Positions 1,434-9,712 of a DNA stretch of 9,712 bases are shown here, one piece after another. The stretch covers positions 1 to 9,712 of IMG/VR virus record IMGVR_UViG_2778261088_000009. One strand, given 5' to 3'. The notes beneath the pieces were generated by a model. The model did not search any database and had not been told where the DNA came from. It saw nothing but the letters and a program-made list of their open reading frames with translations. The first letter of the stretch is position 1, and each line of letters starts with the position of its first letter. The stretch comes from a virus. Its lineage: Duplodnaviria > Heunggongvirae > Uroviricota > Caudoviricetes. A program made the position numbers and the translations under genes.

Positions 1434-2078
1434 ATGAATTTTCCTGGCCCAGCATCAACTGCTTCTTATTTAAGATCTAATTACAGCAGAGATTTCTTGA
1501 CTATTCAGTGTGGTGAATACACATACGGAAAACCAAGAATTGAGATTGGGATGCATGACGACAAGCGAATTCTTTCAATTGGTGAATATTGCTCTATAGC
1601 TTTCGACGTTGTGATTTTTGTTGGAAGACAAGGTCGTCATGCGACAAATACATTAACAAGTTACCCGCTAAATATGGTTGTAGATCCTGAGTTAAGAAAT
1701 GGATTTAACCCTACAGGACATATATGGCAGGCGAGCTCTGACATATTTGGGAAAGATCTTGATGTTATCATAGGGCATGATGTATGGATTGGTTCTAGAT
1801 GTACAATTTTAGCAGGGGTTAATATTGGAACTGGTGCCATCATTGCCGCAGGCTCTGTTGTTACTAAAGATGTACCGCCATATGCAATTGTAGGAGGAGT
1901 ACCAGCTAAGGTTATTAGATACAGACATCCTCCAGAAATAATTGATAGATTATTAAAGACTGAATGGTGGAAGTTAAAACCTAATGAGCTGTGGAATTTG
2001 ATTGGTTCATCTTTCGGGACGTCTAATATTGAAATCCCATTAAAAATATTAGAAAACAGAAGCGCTTCAGAAAAATAA
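1434..2078 (+). CDS. Hexapeptide-repeat (left-handed beta-helix) acetyltransferase of the XAT class (Vat / CatB-like xenobiotic acetyltransferase)
   Basis: 214-aa ORF. Shows the motifs I associate with streptogramin A (Vat) and CatB-type acetyltransferases: N-terminal GEYTYG, the H-A-T-N-T...SYPL segment with the presumed catalytic His, hexapeptide repeats (IIGHDVWIGSRCTILAGVNIGTGAIIAAGSVVTKDVPPYAIVGGVPAKVIR) and a C-terminal LL-x-x-EWW motif. The gene and its flanks are visibly AT-rich compared with int and the tailspike 5' half. Confidence 0.85.
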   Translation: MNFPGPASTASYLRSNYSRDFLTIQCGEYTYGKPRIEIGMHDDKRILSIGEYCSIAFDVVIFVGRQGRHATNTLTSYPLNMVVDPELRNGFNPTGHIWQASSDIFGKDLDVIIGHDVWIGSRCTILAGVNIGTGAIIAAGSVVTKDVPPYAIVGGVPAKVIRYRHPPEIIDRLLKTEWWKLKPNELWNLIGSSFGTSNIEIPLKILENRSASEK

Positions 2079-2172: not shown

Positions 2173-4608
2173 TTATATATTTTCTCTCATTTCTATCATT
2201 TCAATTCTAGATAATGCTTTTTGGTAATTCCTGCGTTGTAATGCAGCTTCAAGGACTAAAGCCTCTTCATAACGGATACCATAACGTGAGCCTGCAGGAG
2301 TGACCAGAATATCTTCATATTCTGGATCTGCCTCTTCTTCATACTCTTCTTCGACTTCTTGAAACTCTGTCTCGATGTACTCCTCTTCTACATCTTCAAC
2401 TACAGGGACGCTCACGAATGGATTTTGCGCAAAAGGTGAACCATCTTCATTAAGAACAGGTATCATTTCCATTTTTGGAGTCTGATACTCTTCATTCACT
2501 ACTCGTTTAATCCGTGTTCCGTCTTCCAGTACCTCATCCTTTAATACCTGACGACTCTCAGTAACCATCACTGGTTTGCTTACAATTCGAGTTTTAGTAA
2601 CCTGCACTGGAACTGTTGTTATGCGAGTTTTAGTAACCATTACACCTTCGTTTGTCTGAACCTTAGTATATTGATCATCCCACTCGTCAAAGCAAAAGAA
2701 TCCAAATCGGTGCGCATCAAGTCCATGACGCTCAAACGCCTCTTTCGCACGCTGAGCGATCACACCAAAATGCCAGCGCGCCCCGTCCTCACCTTTTTCT
2801 TCCACCCTGTCGAGATACTGGAACTGCACAAAATCTACCTCCGACCAGGCATCCAGAATCGCATCAGCAAAAGATGGTTGCATCAATCGTTCGTCTGATG
2901 TGACAACAAAATCAAGCACCCCACGGGCGAGGATCGGAGGGTTTTTCGTTTTGTGATTCTCATCTGACGTTACGGTGAAGGCTGTCTGTGTGGCCCCGCC
3001 AGCCCAAGCAAGAGCAGCCGTGCCGCAATTAATGGCATTTGTGGTGGTTGGCGTGAGCGCCTTATTTACTGTAACAGTGCCAGTGCCAAGTGCCTCCAGC
3101 GCAATTGAACAATTGCTGATACCTTCGGCACTGATCCTGATGCGAGGATCCGTGATGCTTGCAGTACGCAGGCGAACTGCTCCAGTATCACCGTCTGCAT
3201 AGGACAGGCGAAAGGCCCTCAGCCCATTTCCTTCTAAATCAAAGCTTCGGTCCCTAAATACAGCTCCCATACGCACAGCATTGTTGGACACGCGAGATTG
3301 TAAGTAGCTAAGGCTATTGCCCGCCCCGTCCTCCCAACCTATCCGGTGGGTATTTCGCATAACAATGGCTTTCTGGTATACATCTGTTAAGCCAGACTCA
3401 GTGAAGGTTCTCAAAGATCCGATAGGATATGCAATGCCTGCTCCCCACTTAGATCCATTGGAACTAATGGCTAACGCCTGTGTGCAATCCTCAGTTGTGC
3501 CATTGATTGTCGGGTCTGCACCTGCAACCAAAGATATACCAGTGGTCTTACCACGGTTATCTGCGCTATGCATGTCTACGTAGGTGCCGTGGTTAACTAT
3601 CGCCATCTCAGCACACCAGGTAGTGCCCTTTGCATTGGGGTAACGTTTTGCATCTAAGTATAACGCCCAAACGTTATTGGTTACACCTGATTCATTATCG
3701 TTAACTCCCACTCCAACCACGCCAATAGCGGCACCACCAGTAGGCATTTCTTTATTATGTGCCGCTCCAGCCATACCAATGGCCCCAGTTGAAGAATAGG
3801 ACGCAAAGGTGGCGTTTTTCTCGACCCATCCCAGATTTGGCTGAAGTGTCCCATTGGGGGCTACATAATCTTTCTTCCCCAGCCAGGTACTTTGATCTAC
3901 AGGCGCATCCTTTGCACCTGAATAATCAAAGGCGGCGTCCCCAACAAATAAACGCGGATACCTGGAGGAGTTAACTGGTGTTCCAGGCTCAGACCAAACA
4001 GGACGCCGCTTAAGCATCACGCCGCCAGTGCCTAAAAACTCGGCTTCACTGTCTACAATAAAATTACCTCTATGGAAGGAATTTAATAGATATTTCCCGG
4101 CAGGGACATAAACATCTCCAGCAAACAAGGCCGCAACTGCAAATGAACTGTCCGAGTTATTAGCGCCTGTTGAATCTGCTCCTCCAGCAAATCCACTCCA
4201 AGTAACAGGCTTTGCTAATCCTCCGACAAATCCAGCTCCACCAGGACCCTCCAGTTCAGATCGCAGTTGATCAGGGTCATACTTCAGCACATTAGGAAAA
4301 TAGAACTGCTGCGCACCATATGCATCATATACAGCCATAGAATGGCCTTGCACGGTTACGAATTTGGCAATCTGTCCGTTATATACTGGATACCCTGCGG
4401 CATTGATGACGATCGGCTGTGCAACAGGAACGTGAGAACCATCTTCGTTCTCAACATAGACCTGAATCTGGTTATCAGGATTTACCGGGTCAGTGTCAAT
4501 TTTACCGATATAAATTTTGCCATTAGCCACGGCTTTAAAAGAACGAGCCATAGTGAAGAGTTGCGAAGGCATACTCACTACAACATTGGCATTTATCGAA
4601 TCTGTCAT
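2173..4608 (-). CDS. Tailspike protein, mosaic: P22-type head-binding N-terminal domain, unrelated central (receptor-binding / depolymerase-like) body, C-terminal intramolecular-chaperone-like domain
   Basis: 811-aa ORF with a GGAG Shine-Dalgarno about 9 nt upstream of the ATG at 4606-4608. The first ~115 aa ([44 protein letters not shown]...[15 protein letters not shown]...NVLKYDPDQ) are near-identical in pattern to the P22 gp9 head-binding domain as I remember it. The central region is Gly/Ala/Thr/Asn-rich with no P22 similarity. The last ~240 aa (from [12 protein letters not shown]) resemble the auto-cleaving C-terminal chaperone domains of endosialidase and T5-pb1-type fibers and end in a highly acidic tail. 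Confidence 0.9.
2587..2638. repeat. Tandem direct repeat inside the tailspike 3' coding region
   Basis: 15-16-nt unit (t/g)cgagttttagtaacc at 2587-2602 and 2623-2638 (36-nt period), encoding the repeated peptide VTKTRI in the tailspike C-terminal domain. Confidence 0.7.
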
Positions 4609-4771: not shown

Positions 4772-4776
4772 GGGCA

Positions 4777-4801
4777 TAAAAAAACCCAGCCGAAGCTGGG
4801 T
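4777..4801 (-). terminator. Rho-independent terminator (first of a tandem pair) downstream of the 322-aa gene
   Basis: On the minus strand: stem acccagc / gctgggt (7 bp) with tetraloop, followed by a run of 6-7 U (plus-strand A-run 4778-4784). Confidence 0.6.
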
Positions 4802-4850
4802 CGTTGCGTTGGTTATCTGTCAGTAGTTATGTGCTGGCTGAAGGATTTGT

Positions 4851-4877
4851 ACAAAAAACCCACCTGAAGGTGGGTTT
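4851..4877 (-). terminator. Rho-independent terminator immediately after the stop codon of the 322-aa gene
   Basis: 9-bp stem (4856-4864 / 4869-4877) with tgaa loop, followed on the minus strand by a T-rich tract. Starts about 6 nt after the TAA at 4883-4885. Confidence 0.55.
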
Positions 4878-4882
4878 CATAA

Positions 4883-5851
4883 TTAGATTTCTGGTTTCAT
4901 TCTTCCGAAAACCTTTTCTATTCCTTTTTCGTATTCTTCTCTTGTCTCACTCATCGCTGCGACACCAAGAAGCTTACCGATATGCTGACGCAAAGCCTTG
5001 ACACCAATTTCAGAAAGGAACAGATGCAACTTATCAGATTGTTTTCCGTTCTCGTCTCGGCTGGCTCGAATCTGTTCAAGGATTTTACCTTTACTCTTTG
5101 CTAGCGGGGTGTATATCTGCATGTTGGTTAGCTGCCCAAAACGAATAGGCCGTCCTTTCTCTGGCCTATTCAGGCCGTACAGTCGATACCACTCCTCGTA
5201 TAGCTCATCTGGAAATTCCTTTTCATATTGACGAGCCTCTTCACGAACAAACGCTTTGAACTCGTCAATGACAGCCTGAACTTCTGGACGATAACCAGCA
5301 AGCGCATACGCAACCCCCTTAATTCCCGCCTTAGCGGAGGCATTAATAAGTCTCTGTGCTGCGGCGGCTGCCTTTAACCGTGATTGTGGTAGATCGTCAT
5401 TATCTTTGGCTTCTATTAGTGCCCTACCAATATCAACAATTGCTGTAATGTCATAACCTAACGCTTGATGAACGGTTTTAGACTTCGAAGTAAGTTGAAA
5501 TTTATAGGGATTTTCCATTTTTCGCTGCAATTCTAGATCTCGGTATTTGCTCATATACTGAGCGCCAAGCAGTTGATCTAAATCCCTGGCATGTTCACCA
5601 ATCCCTAGCAACTGAGATAATCCAGTTTTCGTAACAACGACAGTTTTCGACTCGTCATCCAGTACATAACATTCAGCATCAATGCCAAAATCATCTAAAA
5701 AGTTACCACGATGAGTTGCCCTGAGAATCTTACTTTTCCATCTTGCAGCAGCTGCTTTCTTTGCTATTTCAGAACGCTGCTCTTTAGTCAGCGACTTTGC
5801 GCGAGCGATCCCGCCCTTAGCTTTCCCTTCGCCACTTTTCTTTTCAGTCAT
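4883..5851 (-). CDS. Hypothetical protein (322 aa) with a basic N-terminal motif; occupies the position held by the antirepressor/immunity-I genes in P22
   Basis: Long minus-strand ORF. I place the start at the ATG at 5849-5851 (MTEKKSGEGKAKGG...) because AAAGGTG sits 9 nt upstream; the track's longer start at 5914 adds 21 implausible residues. The N-terminus GGIARAKSLTKEQRSEIAKKAAAARW looks like a basic nucleic-acid-binding motif. No family assigned with confidence. Confidence 0.8.
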   Translation of the reverse strand: MTEKKSGEGKAKGGIARAKSLTKEQRSEIAKKAAAARWKSKILRATHRGNFLDDFGIDAECYVLDDESKTVVVTKTGLSQLLGIGEHARDLDQLLGAQYMSKYRDLELQRKMENPYKFQLTSKSKTVHQALGYDITAIVDIGRALIEAKDNDDLPQSRLKAAAAAQRLINASAKAGIKGVAYALAGYRPEVQAVIDEFKAFVREEARQYEKEFPDELYEEWYRLYGLNRPEKGRPIRFGQLTNMQIYTPLAKSKGKILEQIRASRDENGKQSDKLHLFLSEIGVKALRQHIGKLLGVAAMSETREEYEKGIEKVFGRMKPEI

Positions 5852-5944
5852 AATGCAAGCACCTTTGTTGTGATGTATGCTTGCATTATATGCACTGTAC
5901 ACACATACAAGCAAGCATAAAACAAAAACAAAATGCTTGCATTA
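5850..5944. promoter_or_regulatory. Two operator-like palindromes built from four copies of the half-site TAATGCAAGCA in the divergent intergenic region
   Basis: Palindrome 1: 12-bp arms ataatgcaagca (5850-5861) and tgcttgcattat (5878-5889), 16-bp spacer, covering the -10 and the start codon of the 322-aa gene. Palindrome 2: arms gcaagcat (5911-5918) and atgcttgc (5933-5940, extending to atgcttgcatta), 14-bp spacer, overlapping the -35. Centres are about 56 bp apart. Confidence 0.55.
5885..5914 (-). promoter_or_regulatory. Candidate sigma70 promoter for the 322-aa gene
   Basis: On the minus strand: TTGCTT (5909-5914), 18-bp spacer, perfect TATAAT (5885-5890). Leaves a ~26-nt leader containing the AAAGGTG Shine-Dalgarno. 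Both hexamers overlap the palindromic half-sites in the next feature. Confidence 0.5.
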
Positions 5945-6007
5945 CAACCGCGCTACTCCAACTACACATTATCATCTGGTATCCTGCTCAAAACTAAGGA
6001 GGTTGGT

Positions 6008-6331
6008 GTGTATACAACAGTTATCGTGATAGCTATCGCACTCATTGTGGTTCAGTACCAACTGGCATCTTTAAAACAAAAGATATCTGACCTCAAGACT
6101 GAGAACGAAGCACTTAAAAACTCAATAAAAGATGAGAAGAACAAACTATCATTCACCATATCTGATGTTGAGCAATCCATTGAAATTATTGAGAATAATA
6201 TTAACAGGCTAAAAAAAGAAGATATTCATGAAATCAATGACAATATCAAGGATTTGAAATCTTGGCTTAGGAATGTAGGACAAATCGCCACATCAACACG
6301 AGATAAGCTCAATCCATCCATGGATGATTAA
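6008..6331 (+). CDS. Small bitopic membrane protein with coiled-coil domain (107 aa from GTG 6008; track ORF starts at 5933)
   Basis: Strong AAGGAGG Shine-Dalgarno at 5996-6002, 5 nt before an in-frame GTG at 6008. Product starts with a hydrophobic helix (YTTVIVIAIALIVVQY) followed by heptad-like Lys/Glu/Asn-rich sequence (LKQKISDLKTENEALKNSIKDEKNKL...). AT-rich codon usage unlike the neighbouring late genes. Confidence 0.6.
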   Translation: MYTTVIVIAIALIVVQYQLASLKQKISDLKTENEALKNSIKDEKNKLSFTISDVEQSIEIIENNINRLKKEDIHEINDNIKDLKSWLRNVGQIATSTRDKLNPSMDD

Positions 6332-6679
6332 TTACTCCTGTGCCATTCCGCTTAGCGACGCTACAATGCCAGCCCTCGCTAAGCGATTGAACTCTTCGTT
6401 TCCAACTGCATCACGTATTGCTTTTATGGCGACTTTATTTGCCATAAATCTGCGTTCCGCCGCCGCTAATGCTTCTTTGCTTCCACCTGCTCTTACTGCT
6501 TTGGTGGCTTCCTGAACAGCTTTCTCTATCGCATATCGACCACTACGTGTGGTGGCAATTTTAGATACAGCGCCTTTTAACCCGGCGCCAACTAAAGCAC
6601 CCGCGGCAGCGCCTGCAATGCCCCCTCCAGCGCCACCAACAATGGCACCTGATGTTGAGTTGGCAATTGCATTTAACAC
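6332..6679 (-). CDS. Hypothetical glycine-zipper protein (115 aa, GTG start)
   Basis: Minus-strand ORF beginning at a GTG that overlaps the upstream stop (GTGTTAA). N-terminal Gly/Ala-rich hydrophobic segment [28 protein letters not shown] is typical of glycine-zipper membrane-inserting helices. Could be a separate coupled gene or the 3' part of one frameshifted gene with the 149-aa ORF. Confidence 0.5.
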
Positions 6680-7122
6680 TGTTGATGTGACGTTGGATAC
6701 CCACCAATTGTTTCACCGGCTTGCGCGTAAGGGTCTGTCGGTCGATCGACTGGACGATAGACATCATCCAAAACCTTGGGTCCACCAAGCCCCTGACTGA
6801 TTGCATTAATCAGACTTGCGCCGCCCTGCAATACGTCAAATGGTATGTTTACCAGACCACGACCAGCCTGTTCTGCAATTTGCCCTGCACTTTGACCACC
6901 TGTGAGCCAATCATCAGCTTGTTGCATCAATGATGGTTCTTCTTTCTGCTGCTGAGGCGGAGGGTATGCTGCATAAAACTGATCTCTTGCTTCAGCCCAT
7001 TTGTCACCAGCCTTAGGGGCAACAACCTCATCAAAATATTGCGCTTGAGCCTGTGCTTTCTGTTCTTCAGTTAACGCCTGATACTGTGGAGAAGCGATAA
7101 CATCTTTCCATGCTTTAGCCAT
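6673..7122 (-). CDS. Hypothetical protein (149 aa), Gln/Ala/Pro-rich; possible virion internal or ejection-type protein
   Basis: Its ATG at 7120-7122 overlaps the TAA of the upstream 449-aa gene (TAATG), indicating translational coupling. Low-complexity Q/A/P-rich composition. No confident family assignment. Confidence 0.6.
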
Positions 7123-8471
7123 TAATCACCCCATAAAGACGAGAAACCGGACTTATTGCTGTCGCTTCCTGATTTTCGCTCACTAACATATGTGTCATAA
7201 CCTGATGAACTATATCCCATTGATTCAGCCTCCCTTGCTGCAACCTTTTGAAATACAGAATATTGCGATCGGATTTCAGATAACTGTTTTCTGACGACCT
7301 CTTCAGGCTGTGTTATATCGAGTTTCGCGATCAGGTTTTCCAGTTTTTGGCCTTCAGCATTGGAGAGGCTACCCATACCTCGCATAGTCTGCACGTTCTG
7401 GACAAACGCACCCGACTTTAATTCTTCTATCGCATTACGGTTTGCAAGCCCTTCAGCACTTGTGAAGCCATCTATATTTCTTCCTTCGAAGCGACCGATA
7501 CCTTCAAGCTCCTTCTTACCAAGCAAAGAATCAATTTTCTCTATCCCTCGCTCACCAGTAATCAACGCATTGTTGTAATTATTGTTGCCATCAAGCCATC
7601 TCTTAGCCTGAGACATTCTGGCTGACGTTGCAGCTTTACCGGTTAGAGGATCAATTCCCGTCGCTGCTATCTGTGAGTTAAGAGACAAAACATCCATATC
7701 CTGAAGTTGTCCTGCTCTTTCAAGGCCCGCCTGTGACTGCTTAAACACATACTTGTCGTGATTCAGTCTTGCCATTTGAGCCTTATAGGAAAGATCCTGC
7801 CCCCTAATAGCCCTCGCATTCGTCATGTCATTATTGCGAATGGTTTCGTTAATTCTTTGCTGCTCCTGCTGGCGACCAACCATCTTATCCTGAACAGCAA
7901 ACGCCTTTTCTGGCCCAAGTGCACCGAGAGACATAGTAGTCAGCATGTGTGATAGCTGCTCTGGATTCTGGATACCTGTCTGAATCATCCAGTCAGCATT
8001 CGCCCCCACGCGATTTAACCTGTCCTTGTTGTCAGTAATGAATTTACTGTAGGCTTCCGGCCCCTGAGAAAGAGCGACGTTAGCCCTCATGGCTAAATCG
8101 CCCATATCGTTGCGTTGCTGCTCATTAAGACCGGAAAATGCCTGTTGTGCCTGTGCAACAAACGCTGGATTTTCCTGGGCAAACTTAAATAGTCCCGATG
8201 GATCACCAGAAGCCCATGCATCAGCGTGAACCTTATTGAACGCACTAATAGCTTTCTGTTGCTGTTCCTGATTGTAAATATCAGCAACTCCAGCCAGACC
8301 ACGTAACGCGGTCAGACCAACGTTATTTGCACCTGAGCGAGCCAGTTCATTGTTTTCGCGGATCAGACCAAGCGTTGCGTTAATGTCGCTTGCCTTTGGC
8401 GCATTCTCATTTTGCGTACCGATGCCAGCCAGAAAACCACCAGAATTAATACCCTGTTGCCACGTAGCCAT
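7122..8471 (-). CDS. Hypothetical protein (449 aa), Gln/Asn/Ala-rich; possible virion internal or ejection-type protein
   Basis: Long ORF whose ATG (8469-8471) lies 2 nt after the stop of the gp4-like remnant, with AAGGGG Shine-Dalgarno. Its position after coat and gp4 in a P22-like late operon suggests a virion component. No similarity to P22 gp10 or gp26 as I remember them. Confidence 0.7.
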
Positions 8472-8473
8472 GA

Positions 8474-8719
8474 TTACCCCTTAAAACAACGAGCCAAGCA
8501 GACCAAGACCAGCACCGATAACGGCATGATGCCGTTTTCTGTATCCGCAAACTGATATCCAAGCTCGATACCTTTCGCCTGCCATGCTGCCATCATGTCT
8601 TCGAGGTCATTAATGGCATCTTCAATTGCCTGAGGGTCAGCATCTGTCAACGTGGCATTGGAATACAGCCCGGCTTTTCGTAAAGCCTTTAGAACGAGAT
8701 CACCCTTCGTTTTCGCCAT
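8474..8719 (-). pseudogene. N-terminal remnant of a gp4-like tail accessory (head completion) gene
   Basis: 81-aa ORF. The first ~66 aa ([62 protein letters not shown]) track the P22 gp4 N-terminus as I remember it. The ORF then ends after 18 unrelated residues ([18 protein letters not shown]), whereas P22 gp4 is about 166 aa. The break coincides with a 17-bp palindrome at 8520-8536. Confidence 0.55.
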
Positions 8720-8888
8720 CTTCTTCCGCCTTAGCCACTTTTTGCTTCGTTGCGGTTTCTTCAGGAGTTTTTACCCAACCTTTTTTCAGGTGAGATTTAA
8801 CTTCTTCGTCATCAACAATGATGTAATCGACAGCAAACTGACCACAGGTGATCATGTTGCCAGGCTTATAGAGCATTGTTCGTGCCAT
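8700..8888 (-). CDS. Small hypothetical protein (62 aa from the internal ATG at 8886-8888) between coat and the gp4-like gene
   Basis: ATG at 8886-8888 preceded by GGGAGAAG about 6 nt upstream and located just downstream of the coat terminator hairpin. The track's longer start at 8927 would overlap that hairpin. Codon usage resembles neighbouring genes. Its 3' end overlaps the gp4-like start by 20 nt. Confidence 0.45.
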
Positions 8889-8900
8889 TGTCTTCTCCCA

Positions 8901-8922
8901 ATAAAAATGGGGCCGAAGCCCC
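8901..8922 (-). terminator. Rho-independent (probably partial) terminator immediately after the coat gene
   Basis: On the minus strand: GGGGC-UUCG-GCCCC (5-bp GC stem with UUCG tetraloop; plus-strand 8909-8922) followed by AUUUUUAUU. Begins 8 nt after the coat TAA at 8930-8932. Confidence 0.55.
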
Positions 8923-8929
8923 GCCAAAA

Positions 8930-9712
8930 TTACTGCCCGGCAATAACGATGCCCGTATATTCAGGAACAAGTACAGAGCAACCATACAGAGTGGTGAAAC
9001 GAGCAGTGGTTACGCCTTTGATGTGGTCGAAGGCGTAAGACATGATCAGCGTAGCGCCCTGCTCGGTGGTTGCTGTCATTACCTGTGGACCCTGACCAGT
9101 CGGGAACGCCAGTTTGCCGTACATCAGCTCAACAGAACCATCAGCCCAGAACAGGTTAGCCGGTGCGGCATTTTTGTTGAGAATGGTAATTGCTGCACCA
9201 TTTGCCGCGTTAGCATCAACGTTTGCATATGGTCGGCTGGCGACATCCGCGTTGTCAGGCGGCAGAATTTTCGGGGAGATAGTTACTGTCGTTCCGCTTA
9301 CTGCCAGAACGCGGAATACCTGCGGCTGCCCGGTGGTGTCTTTGGTGATCTGGTGTACAGAATTCACGCCAGCAATGGTGAACGCATCGCCAACCTGCAA
9401 CCCAGATGCAGATACCGTAATAGTCCCCTGTCGGTTATCCACTGGCATATCGTTGGCATCTTTCGCTTCAACCTTGTGCGCAGGTTCAGCCGCCAGCGTC
9501 AGGGAAGTTGCTGTACCCTTCGGAACACGACCAGAAATATCCGTCTTGTAGCTATCGAAGGACGCAACCGGAGGGATCTGCGCTTTTTCGTATGCTGTCA
9601 GGGTTGCGCCCTGAGCATAGGCACGGTGACCAAGCTCGCCAGCAAGGTCTTTGTAGTTGAAGGGGTTCCAGAAAGAGCGGCGGTTGATACCCTGTGGTAT
9701 CGGCCTTGGCAC
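8930..9712 (-). CDS. Major capsid (coat) protein, P22 gp5-like, 5'-truncated by the window edge (C-terminal ~260 aa present)
   Basis: The ORF runs off the right edge; the leading 'M' in the track is a GTG at the window boundary, not a start. Translation aligns by eye with the C-terminal ~260 aa of P22 coat as I remember it (SFWNPFNYKDLAG vs SYFFNPQDYKKAG; RPYANVDANAANGAAITILNKNAAPANLFWADGS vs [34 protein letters not shown]). Confidence 0.9.
   Translation of the reverse strand: MPRPIPQGINRRSFWNPFNYKDLAGELGHRAYAQGATLTAYEKAQIPPVASFDSYKTDISGRVPKGTATSLTLAAEPAHKVEAKDANDMPVDNRQGTITVSASGLQVGDAFTIAGVNSVHQITKDTTGQPQVFRVLAVSGTTVTISPKILPPDNADVASRPYANVDANAANGAAITILNKNAAPANLFWADGSVELMYGKLAFPTGQGPQVMTATTEQGATLIMSYAFDHIKGVTTARFTTLYGCSVLVPEYTGIVIAGQ

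What the first reader, a model, noticed from the sequence alone, without database searches (positions are those of the whole stretch)
6320..6340. Convergent genes abut with zero intergenic space at a TAATTA back-to-back stop
The plus-strand membrane-protein gene ends at TAA 6329-6331 and the minus-strand glycine-zipper ORF ends at TTA 6332-6334, with no terminator between them. The plus-strand gene is AT-rich and the minus-strand gene is not. This sharp composition switch with no spacer looks like the edge of an inserted cassette that may have clipped the 3' end of the late operon.
Basis: seen in the sequence. Interest (0 to 1): 0.35.

Follow-up and report, generated by a model that had tools for sequence, protein, structure and literature searches.

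The report
Conserved hkcB / gene 16 gene border
The back-to-back stop codons are real, but they are the normal, widely conserved border between the P22-type DNA-ejection gene 16 (here broken by an internal deletion) and a small prophage accessory gene, hkcB, so this is an ordinary and already annotated arrangement.

Summary
The + strand gene ends at TAA 6329-6331, the - strand ORF ends at TTA 6332-6334, and GC steps from 34% to 51%. The window is a 9.7-kb remnant of a P22-like prophage.

The + gene is hkcB (107 aa, real start GTG 6008). It lies in the known variable "ant moron" between gene 16 and the tailspike gene, in the slot that holds sieA in P22.

The 115-aa "glycine-zipper ORF" is not a gene. 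It is the C-terminal fragment of ejection-protein gene 16, split by a 1369-bp internal deletion at 6696-6699.

The zero-spacer junction is identical in the functional phages HK620, CUS-3, epsilon34 and 611R6. It also occurs in homologues only 52-60% identical, in every readable hkcB locus (25 viral contigs), and in 154 complete E. coli genomes.

Gene 16 keeps its natural end, so nothing was clipped. Moron-less phages end ...SGMNE* against ...SGMAQE* here.

GC3 is equal on both sides (0.36), so the GC step reflects amino-acid content, not foreign origin. No terminator is expected, because late transcripts must read through to the tailspike gene.

Verdict: already known, low interest. Side result: the slot holds at least 12 unrelated cassettes between conserved flanks.

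The parts
6329..6334 (.). TAATTA: stop codon of hkcB (TAA, + strand) abutting the stop codon of gene 16 (TTA = TAA on the - strand), with 0-nt spacer
   Evidence: The junction is identical in four functional phages and reads TAA|TTA or TAA|CTA in diverged homologues.
6008..6331 (+). hkcB homologue, 107 aa, GTG start 5 nt after AAGGAGG. It has an N-terminal hydrophobic segment followed by one long helix (coiled coil). The ORF finder's ATG at 5933 is probably not the start.
   Evidence: phrog_5962 E=2e-58, matching residues 26-132 of the long ORF. It is 96-98% identical to epsilon34 gp14 and CUS-3 HkcB, which are annotated as 107 aa. Family alignment A1. AlphaFold model has helix 2-101, pLDDT 92. 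Kyte-Doolittle hydropathy is 2.2 over residues 4-22.
5977..6010 (+). Leader, ribosome-binding site and GTG start shared with P22 sieA and with many unrelated genes. This is the 5' flank of the cassette slot.
   Evidence: 97% identical to the sequence just upstream of P22 sieA. The 22-nt core precedes 12 unrelated ORF families in at least 119 viral contigs.
6314..6323 (.). CCATCCATGG, the conserved 3' boundary element of the slot, here inside the last codons of hkcB (..N-P-S-M-D-D*). With its flanks (6312-6325) it can form a 5-bp, 4-nt-loop hairpin.
   Evidence: CCNTCCNTGG lies within 30 nt of the slot ORF's stop in 78 of 117 loci, against a background of 2e-4 per 60 nt. It sits at offset -18 in all hkcB genes and at 0 to +6 in the other families. 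The centroid fold shows the hairpin.
6332..7122 (-). Gene 16 (P22-type DNA-transfer/ejection protein) pseudogene: 791 bp left of about 2160 bp
   Evidence: phrog_770 positions 2-141 match the 149-aa ORF and positions 592-666 match the 115-aa ORF. BLAST against CUS-3, HK620 and epsilon34.
6696..6699 (.). Junction of the 1369-bp internal deletion in gene 16 (GATA microhomology). It causes a frameshift.
   Evidence: Window 6680-6699 corresponds to CUS-3 9275-9294, and window 6696-6716 to CUS-3 10660 onward.
6332..6679 (-). The 115-aa 'glycine-zipper ORF': the C-terminal fragment of gp16 with its natural stop. GTG 6679 is an internal codon, not a start.
   Evidence: tblastn gives 97.4% identity over all 115 aa to the end of CUS-3 gp16. 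C-terminus comparison.
6673..7122 (-). 149-aa ORF: the N-terminal ~142 aa of gp16 followed by a short out-of-frame tail
   Evidence: The identical product is found on 4 public contigs.
7122..8471 (-). Gene 20 (ejection protein), intact, 449 aa
   Evidence: PF16928 E=2e-109. 98% DNA identity to CUS-3 and HK620.
8481..8719 (-). A 40-bp 3' stub of gene 7 joined to the first ~67 codons of gene 4. This is the junction (8519-8520, TA) of a 3502-bp deletion that removed genes 7, 14, 26, 10 and the 3' part of gene 4.
   Evidence: PF11650 matches only profile positions 4-66 of 159.
4883..5851 (-). P63C-domain gene (322 aa from ATG 5851), the other gene of this ant moron. It is divergent from hkcB.
   Evidence: PF10546 and phrog_2384. 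Same gene pair as in phage 611R6.
5850..5944 (.). Operator-like inverted and direct repeats (ATGCTTGCATTA twice; 34-nt arms) in the 156-bp divergent control region
4773..4802 (-). Intrinsic terminator homologous to tANT of P22/HK620, upstream of the tailspike gene. It is the first terminator-like site the late transcript meets after gene 16.
   Evidence: Homology to the HK620 tANT region.
2173..4608 (-). Tailspike gene (P22 head-binding domain plus S74 chaperone domain), the last gene of the late operon, downstream of the moron

Best explanation
The junction is the inherited gene border between the 3' end of P22-type ejection-protein gene 16 and hkcB. hkcB is a small accessory gene read in the opposite direction. 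It occupies the slot of the 'ant moron' that holds the superinfection-exclusion gene sieA in P22.

The slot is a single-gene cassette site with two conserved flanks. The 5' flank is a conserved leader, ribosome-binding site and GTG start. The 3' flank is a short element, CCNTCCNTGG, that sits a few bases from the stop codon of gene 16. In most cassette families the ORF stops just before that element, leaving 8-45 nt of spacer. The hkcB reading frame instead runs through the element and ends exactly where gene 16 ends, which gives zero spacer.

No terminator lies there. In the intact phage, antiterminated late transcription has to pass antisense through hkcB and onward to the tailspike gene. 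hkcB transcripts simply run into gene 16 antisense and are presumably ended by Rho.

The GC step comes from protein composition, not from foreign origin.

In this particular window the phage is dead. Gene 16 lost 1369 bp internally, which created the 115-aa ORF. Genes 7 to 4 lost 3502 bp. Everything beyond the coat gene is gone.

Shown: anatomy, conservation, deletions, shared flanks. Inferred: expression of hkcB from the prophage, Rho termination, and a membrane-located, SieA-like role for HkcB.
For: Junction and ORFs. Family assignments: hkcB = phrog_5962; gp16 fragments = phrog_770 N- and C-termini; gp20 = PF16928.

Same 0-nt junction in the annotated functional phages HK620, CUS-3, epsilon34 and 611R6. 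Also in 52-60% identical homologues, in 25 viral contigs, and in 154 E. coli genomes.

Natural gp16 C-terminus. Deletion mapping.

sieA leader homology. Twelve unrelated cassette families behind the same leader, each with its own fixed spacer of -4 to 45 nt. Boundary element in 78 of 117 loci against a background of 2e-4.

GC3 equal on both sides. No terminator at the junction. The nearby hairpin is not conserved.

[quoted passage not shown] P22 gene 16 and sieA are likewise convergent, 22 bp apart.
Against: No promoter passing the consensus scan was found upstream of hkcB in this window. There is only a TATCAT aligned with the annotated P22 sieA promoter region, so expression is inferred.

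No functional data exist for HkcB, and it shows no sequence similarity to SieA.

The role of the CCNTCCNTGG element (recombination linker or RNA hairpin) is untested. Three cassette families lack it.
Confidence: 0.9

Rival explanations
1. One reading: an AT-rich cassette was inserted here and cut off the 3' end of the last late gene, leaving a truncated 115-aa ORF.
For: The region is variable among relatives, and moron-less phages exist. The last 2-3 codons of gene 16 differ between hkcB-bearing and moron-less phages (AQE* against NE*), so a recombination end point may lie in the last codons. Total GC steps sharply at the junction.
Against: The gp16 C-terminus is full length, in fact one residue longer than in moron-less phages, and identical to that of plaque-forming phages. 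The ORF is short because of a 1369-bp deletion 365 bp upstream of the junction. GC3 is equal on both sides. The late operon continues to the tailspike gene.
Confidence: 0.04
2. The abutting stops hide a functional bidirectional RNA element. Candidates are the 10-bp hairpin 6349-6385 inside gene 16 and the small hairpin 6312-6325 inside hkcB. Such an element would terminate or stabilise the convergent transcripts in place of an intergenic terminator.
For: A perfect 10-bp inverted repeat lies at 6349-6358/6376-6385. The + strand fold has z = -2.3. The CCNTCCNTGG element can form a 4-5-bp hairpin and is conserved across unrelated cassettes.
Against: The 10-bp stem is broken in HK620, 611R6 and Huey, which have the same junction. 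No U-run follows either hairpin. The - strand fold is not unusual, z = -1.1. Variation at the stem position of the small element is not compensated. There are no Rfam matches.
Confidence: 0.06
3. hkcB is not a real gene, and the zero spacer is an accident of ORF calling in AT-rich antisense sequence downstream of gene 16.
For: No function is known. All family matches other than phrog_5962 are coiled-coil noise.
Against: The ORF is kept at 107-109 aa down to 52% identity, with 25 invariant columns and a strongly conserved C-terminal third. It has a strong AAGGAGG site 5 nt before the GTG start, shared with the experimentally studied sieA gene.
Confidence: 0.02

Closest known systems
hkcB / gene 16 border of coliphage HK620 (NC_002730), CUS-3 (CP000711) and Salmonella phage epsilon34 (NC_011976)
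   Same: Same two genes, same orientation, same 0-nt back-to-back stops. The junction sequence is identical or nearly so. hkcB is 96-98% identical to the CUS-3 and epsilon34 versions.
   Different: In those phages gene 16 is intact (708-722 aa) and the phage is viable. Here gene 16 carries a 1369-bp frameshifting deletion and the prophage is a remnant.
sieA / gene 16 border of phage P22 (immI / 'ant moron' region)
   Same: A prophage-expressed small inner-membrane-protein gene, convergent with gene 16, with almost no spacer (22 bp) and no annotated terminator between them. The same leader, ribosome-binding site and GTG start. The same CCNTCCNTGG-type element after the stop.
   Different: HkcB (one hydrophobic segment plus coiled coil, 107 aa) has no detectable similarity to SieA (164 aa, multi-pass). 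SieA's function is shown: it blocks DNA entry, and escape mutations map to the C-terminal parts of gp16 and gp20 (PMC10883804). HkcB's function is unknown.
The 'ant moron' of P22-like phages (Villafane et al. 2008, PMC2629481)
   Same: A variable, non-morphogenetic block between gene 16 and the tailspike gene. Here it contains hkcB, a P63C gene, and remnants of the mnt and ant terminators.
   Different: This version lacks ant, arc and mnt. It resembles that of phage 611R6 for the P63C-hkcB pair.
Morons of lambdoid phages in the classical sense (own promoter, own terminator, deviant base composition)
   Same: Present or absent among relatives. Opposite orientation to the surrounding operon. Lower total GC.
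   Different: No terminator of its own. Synonymous-site GC is the same as in the neighbouring phage gene.

Membership tests
HkcB family (phrog_5962) | Full-length sequence match to the family profile and to named members | tested here: met
   E=2e-58 over profile positions 3-109 of 109. 98%, 96% and 55% identity to epsilon34 gp14, CUS-3 HkcB and HK620 HkcB.
HkcB family (phrog_5962) | Position: convergent with, and abutting, gene 16 of a P22-like phage | tested here: met
P22 gp16 ejection protein (PF26808 / phrog_770) | Sequence match | tested here: met
   The two ORFs match profile positions 2-141 and 592-666 of 668. PF26808 is recorded on both products.
P22 gp16 ejection protein (PF26808 / phrog_770) | Intact reading frame of about 600-720 codons | tested here: not met
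   A 1369-bp deletion with frameshift leaves 791 bp.
SieA superinfection-exclusion proteins (types A-C) | Sequence similarity, including the FxRYPxEAxxFNK motif (PMC10883804) | tested here: not met
   BLASTP gives E=0.048 over 18 residues only. The motif is absent from alignment A1.
SieA superinfection-exclusion proteins (types A-C) | Genomic slot between genes 16 and 9, behind the sieA leader | tested here: met
SieA superinfection-exclusion proteins (types A-C) | Blocks DNA entry of P22-like phages | not testable with these tools
   Needs plating and K+ efflux assays.
Moron (classical definition) | Present in some and absent from other closely related phages | tested here: met
   Huey, Louie and Bas106 lack it. 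Literature: PMC2629481.
Moron (classical definition) | Own promoter | tested here: inconclusive
   The consensus scan finds none upstream of hkcB. The leader is homologous to that of P22 sieA, whose promoter is annotated, and HK620 hkcB carries the whole sieA promoter region.
Moron (classical definition) | Own terminator | tested here: not met
   Zero spacer, and no terminator-like site on the + strand downstream.
Moron (classical definition) | Base composition unlike the surrounding phage genes | tested here: inconclusive
   Total GC is 34% against 51%, but GC3 is 0.361 against 0.362.

The most novel reading that the evidence does not exclude
The sieA slot of P22-like phages is a hotspot of interchangeable single-gene cassettes. 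At least 12 unrelated families, mostly small envelope proteins, sit between a conserved leader/GTG start and a CCNTCCNTGG linker next to gene 16. HkcB, the commonest E. coli cassette, would be an uncharacterised superinfection-exclusion protein. Like SieA, it would act on the membrane-proximal C-terminal parts of the incoming ejection proteins gp16 and gp20. Its invariable linkage to one gp16 C-terminal type would reflect that interplay.
Probability: 0.3. Interest if true: 0.5.

Novelty: already known. Interest (0 to 1): 0.12.

Why it matters
For the finding itself it matters little. The junction has been visible in GenBank annotations since HK620 (2001), and the variable region was described as the 'ant moron' in 2008.

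It is useful as a caution in three ways. A total-GC step can be pure amino-acid composition. An ORF that looks like a small gene can be the tail of a deleted one. A missing terminator is expected where a late operon must read through an insert.

The side result could guide a search for new superinfection-exclusion proteins. That result is a cassette slot with conserved flanks that holds many unrelated small membrane proteins, right next to the gene whose product SieA targets.

Tried and rejected
- **hkcB function by profile libraries.** Pfam, NCBIfam, PADLOC and a PDB profile search returned only sub-threshold coiled-coil noise such as SMC, Rad50, JetC, LmuB and designed coiled coils. These were rejected as uninformative.
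- **Structure.** The AlphaFold model is a single 100-residue helix. A fold search was not run because any coiled coil would match.
- **Hairpin 6349-6385 as a hidden terminator.** Rejected because it is not conserved in HK620, 611R6 or Huey and has no U-run.
- **RNA genes.** Rfam and tRNA scans of the window found nothing.
- **Tandem repeats.** None were found in the acetyltransferase gene, unlike the neuO heptanucleotide array of CUS-3.
- **Deletion junction in other genomes.** An exact search of 185,579 species-representative genomes found nothing. No complete E. coli genome covers at least 80% of 5800-7200. The allele was found only through the exact fusion protein, on 4 contigs.
- **Literature.** A full-text search for 'hkcB' alone was swamped by unrelated abbreviations.

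Full report
**1. Observation**

The window reads ...ATGGATGATTAA|TTACTCCT... at 6320-6339. The ORF table gives a + strand ORF ending at 6331 and a - strand ORF of 115 aa at 6332-6679. The two stop codons therefore touch.

No terminator-like site lies at or near the junction. hkcB has 34.3% GC and the - strand fragment has 51.1%. With 300-nt windows the largest GC step in the whole window falls at 6334.

**2. What the window is**

Family searches and BLAST against annotated phages identify a P22-like (Lederbergvirus) prophage. Its layout is:

| Coordinates | Strand | Feature |
|---|---|---|
| 1-1158 | + | IntS-type integrase |
| 1434-2078 | + | CatB-related acetyltransferase |
| 2173-4608 | - | Tailspike |
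| 4883-5851 | - | P63C-domain gene |
| 6008-6331 | + | hkcB |
| 6332-7122 | - | Gene 16 remnant |
| 7122-8471 | - | Gene 20 |
| ~8481-8520 | - | 40-bp stub of gene 7 |
| 8519-8719 | - | First ~67 codons of gene 4 |
| 8700-8927 | - | Small ORF |
| 8930-9712 | - | Truncated coat gene |

The exact 149-aa product of 6673-7122 occurs on four public contigs. On the longest of these (NNXM01000001.1) the coat fragment lies 16 bp from a GntP-permease gene. The integrase lies next to Form_Nir_trans and MlaA genes. The window is therefore the whole remnant. It has no early region, no late promoter, and no lysis, terminase or portal genes.

**3. The 115-aa ORF**

This ORF is not a gene. PHROG 770 (DNA transfer protein, 668 positions) matches the 149-aa ORF at positions 2-141 and the 115-aa ORF at positions 592-666.

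Against CUS-3, window 5992-6699 aligns to 8587-9294 and window 6696-8526 aligns to 10660-12491. This means 1369 bp are missing, with a 4-bp GATA microhomology at 6696-6699. Because 1369 is not a multiple of three, the frame breaks.

The GTG at 6679 is an internal codon. The Gly/Ala-rich stretch is part of the C-terminal region of gp16.

A second deletion of 3502 bp (junction 8519-8520, TA) removed genes 7, 14, 26, 10 and the 3' part of gene 4.

**4. The + strand gene**

phrog_5962 matches residues 26-132 of the long ORF (E=2e-58). The homologues in epsilon34 (gene 14) and CUS-3 (hkcB) are annotated as 107 aa. A strong AAGGAGG sits 5 nt before GTG 6008. The gene is therefore 6008-6331.

The family is small and confined to Enterobacteriaceae (21 clusters). 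Its length is fixed at 107-109 aa. It has 25 invariant columns and a highly conserved C-terminal third.

The protein has an N-terminal hydrophobic segment (Kyte-Doolittle 2.2 over residues 4-22). It is predicted to be one long helix. No library gives it a function.

**5. The junction is ancestral**

hkcB ends at base N and gene 16 begins at N+1 in each of these:

- HK620 (2258/2259), CUS-3 (3840/3841), epsilon34 (3855/3856) and 611R6 (4238/4239), with TAA|TTA in all four.
- Homologues only 52-60% identical, from Leclercia, Salmonella and a metagenome, with TAA|TTA or TAA|CTA.
- All 25 hkcB-bearing viral contigs where the convergent ORF could be read.

In addition, 154 of 5426 complete E. coli genomes contain an ungapped match across the junction.

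**6. Nothing was clipped**

gp16 ends ...SLSGMAQE* here and in every hkcB-bearing phage. Phages with the same gp16 C-terminal type but no moron (Huey, Louie, Bas106) end ...SLSGMNE*, one residue shorter. They reach the tailspike gene 128 bp later. DNA homology to them stops at window 6344.

**7. The composition step**

GC at codon positions 1, 2 and 3 is 0.43/0.24/0.36 for hkcB and 0.61/0.56/0.36 for the gene 16 fragment. CUS-3 and HK620 show the same pattern.

The step is therefore due to an I/K/L/N-rich coiled coil lying next to an A/G-rich segment. It does not reflect a different mutational history.

**8. Why there is no terminator**

[quoted passage not shown] It lies inside the late operon but is mostly not expressed from it. 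Late transcripts read through it to reach the tailspike gene (PMC2629481, PMC8022706).

The first terminator-like site downstream on the late strand is at 4802-4773 and is homologous to tANT. In P22 itself, gene 16 and the convergent sieA gene are 22 bp apart with no terminator annotated between them.

The 10-bp inverted repeat at 6349-6385 is not conserved in HK620, 611R6 or Huey.

**9. hkcB sits in the sieA slot**

Window 5977-6011 is 97% identical to the 35 nt that end at the sieA start codon in P22. HK620 hkcB carries the whole sieA promoter region.

The ORF starting at that GTG falls into 12 unrelated families. Each family has its own fixed distance to the gene 16 stop:

| Cassette family | Members found | Spacer to gene 16 stop (nt) |
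|---|---|---|
| hkcB | 26 | 0 |
| 129-aa family | 24 | 24 |
| 62-aa family (same length and slot as 'orf62' of phage L) | 12 | 17 |
| SieA | 9 | 22 |
| 75-aa family | 9 | -4 |
| Other families | 2-8 each | 8-45 |

Nine of the twelve families have a hydrophobic segment.

**10. A 3' boundary element explains the zero spacer**

CCNTCCNTGG occurs within 30 nt of the slot ORF's stop in 78 of 117 loci, covering 9 of 12 families. The background rate is 2e-4 per 60 nt.

The element follows the stop codon directly in most families, typically as TAG CCATCCATGGC. In hkcB it lies 18 nt inside the ORF (window 6314-6323), where it encodes P-S-M-D. The 140-aa family keeps the last 24 nt of hkcB as its spacer.

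So hkcB simply reads through the conserved flank and terminates where gene 16 terminates. Whether the element serves as a recombination linker or as a small RNA hairpin is open.

**11. Function of HkcB**

Its function is unknown, and it has no similarity to SieA.

[quoted passage not shown] Escape mutations lie in the C-terminal parts of gp16 and gp20 (PMC10883804). HkcB shares the slot and leader, is predicted to be membrane-anchored, and lies next to the 3' end of gene 16. A SieA-like exclusion role is therefore the best guess. I put it at roughly 30%, as inference only.

**12. Verdict**

The 'cassette edge' idea is right in the general sense of a known moron. The 'clipped late operon' idea is wrong. 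The arrangement is already annotated in several phages and is of low interest. The cassette-slot architecture is a modest side result worth a note.

Noticed in passing
window 6696-6699 and 8519-8520: Two deletions flanked by microhomology inactivate virion genes. One is 1369 bp inside gene 16 (GATA). The other is 3502 bp from gene 7 to gene 4 (TA). Both junctions read ...GATA.
   Followed up: yes
window 9699-9712; L015 7394-7411: The coat gene is cut at its 5' end and lies 16 bp from a GntP-permease gene. The window is therefore the whole 9.7-kb prophage remnant, lacking all early, lysis, terminase and portal genes. The same allele is on 4 public contigs, but on none of 5426 complete E. coli genomes and none of the species-representative genomes.
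   Followed up: partly
window 5977-6010; loci L017-L096 and later: The sieA-type leader and GTG start precede at least 12 unrelated ORF families in P22-like viral contigs. Most have a hydrophobic N-terminal segment. Each family has its own fixed spacer (-4 to 45 nt) to the gene 16 stop.
   Followed up: partly
window 6314-6323; same loci: CCNTCCNTGG is a conserved element at the 3' edge of the slot (78 of 117 loci, background 2e-4 per 60 nt). It lies outside the ORF in most cassettes and inside the last codons of hkcB. It could be a recombination linker or a 4-5-bp hairpin.
   Followed up: partly
window 5850-5944: The 156-bp region between the divergent P63C gene and hkcB holds two exact copies of ATGCTTGCATTA, a perfect 12-nt inverted repeat and 34-nt imperfect arms. 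These look like operators for an unidentified regulator. The same region occurs in phage 611R6.
   Followed up: no
window 1434-2078: A CatB/Vat-related hexapeptide O-acetyltransferase with very low GC (37.7%, GC3 0.26) lies between int and the tailspike gene. This is the position of neuO in CUS-3, but it lacks neuO's heptanucleotide repeat array. It is probably a surface-polysaccharide O-acetylase (lysogenic conversion).
   Followed up: partly
window 2173-4608: The tailspike has a P22 head-binding N-terminus and an S74 intramolecular-chaperone domain followed by an acidic tail. It is 98% identical, together with int and the acetyltransferase, to a full-length prophage at tRNA-Arg in E. coli NCCP 13717. 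That prophage carries a different ant moron and a P22-type gene 16.
   Followed up: partly
window 4773-4876: Remnants of the P22 immI region: a tANT-like terminator (4802-4773, - strand) and the 3' end and terminator of mnt (4837-4876). There are no ant, arc or mnt genes, as in HK620.
   Followed up: partly
window 6349-6385: A perfect 10-bp inverted repeat (CGCTTAGCGA/TCGCTAAGCG) lies inside the last 50 nt of gene 16. It is not conserved in HK620, 611R6 or Huey, so it is probably incidental.
   Followed up: yes
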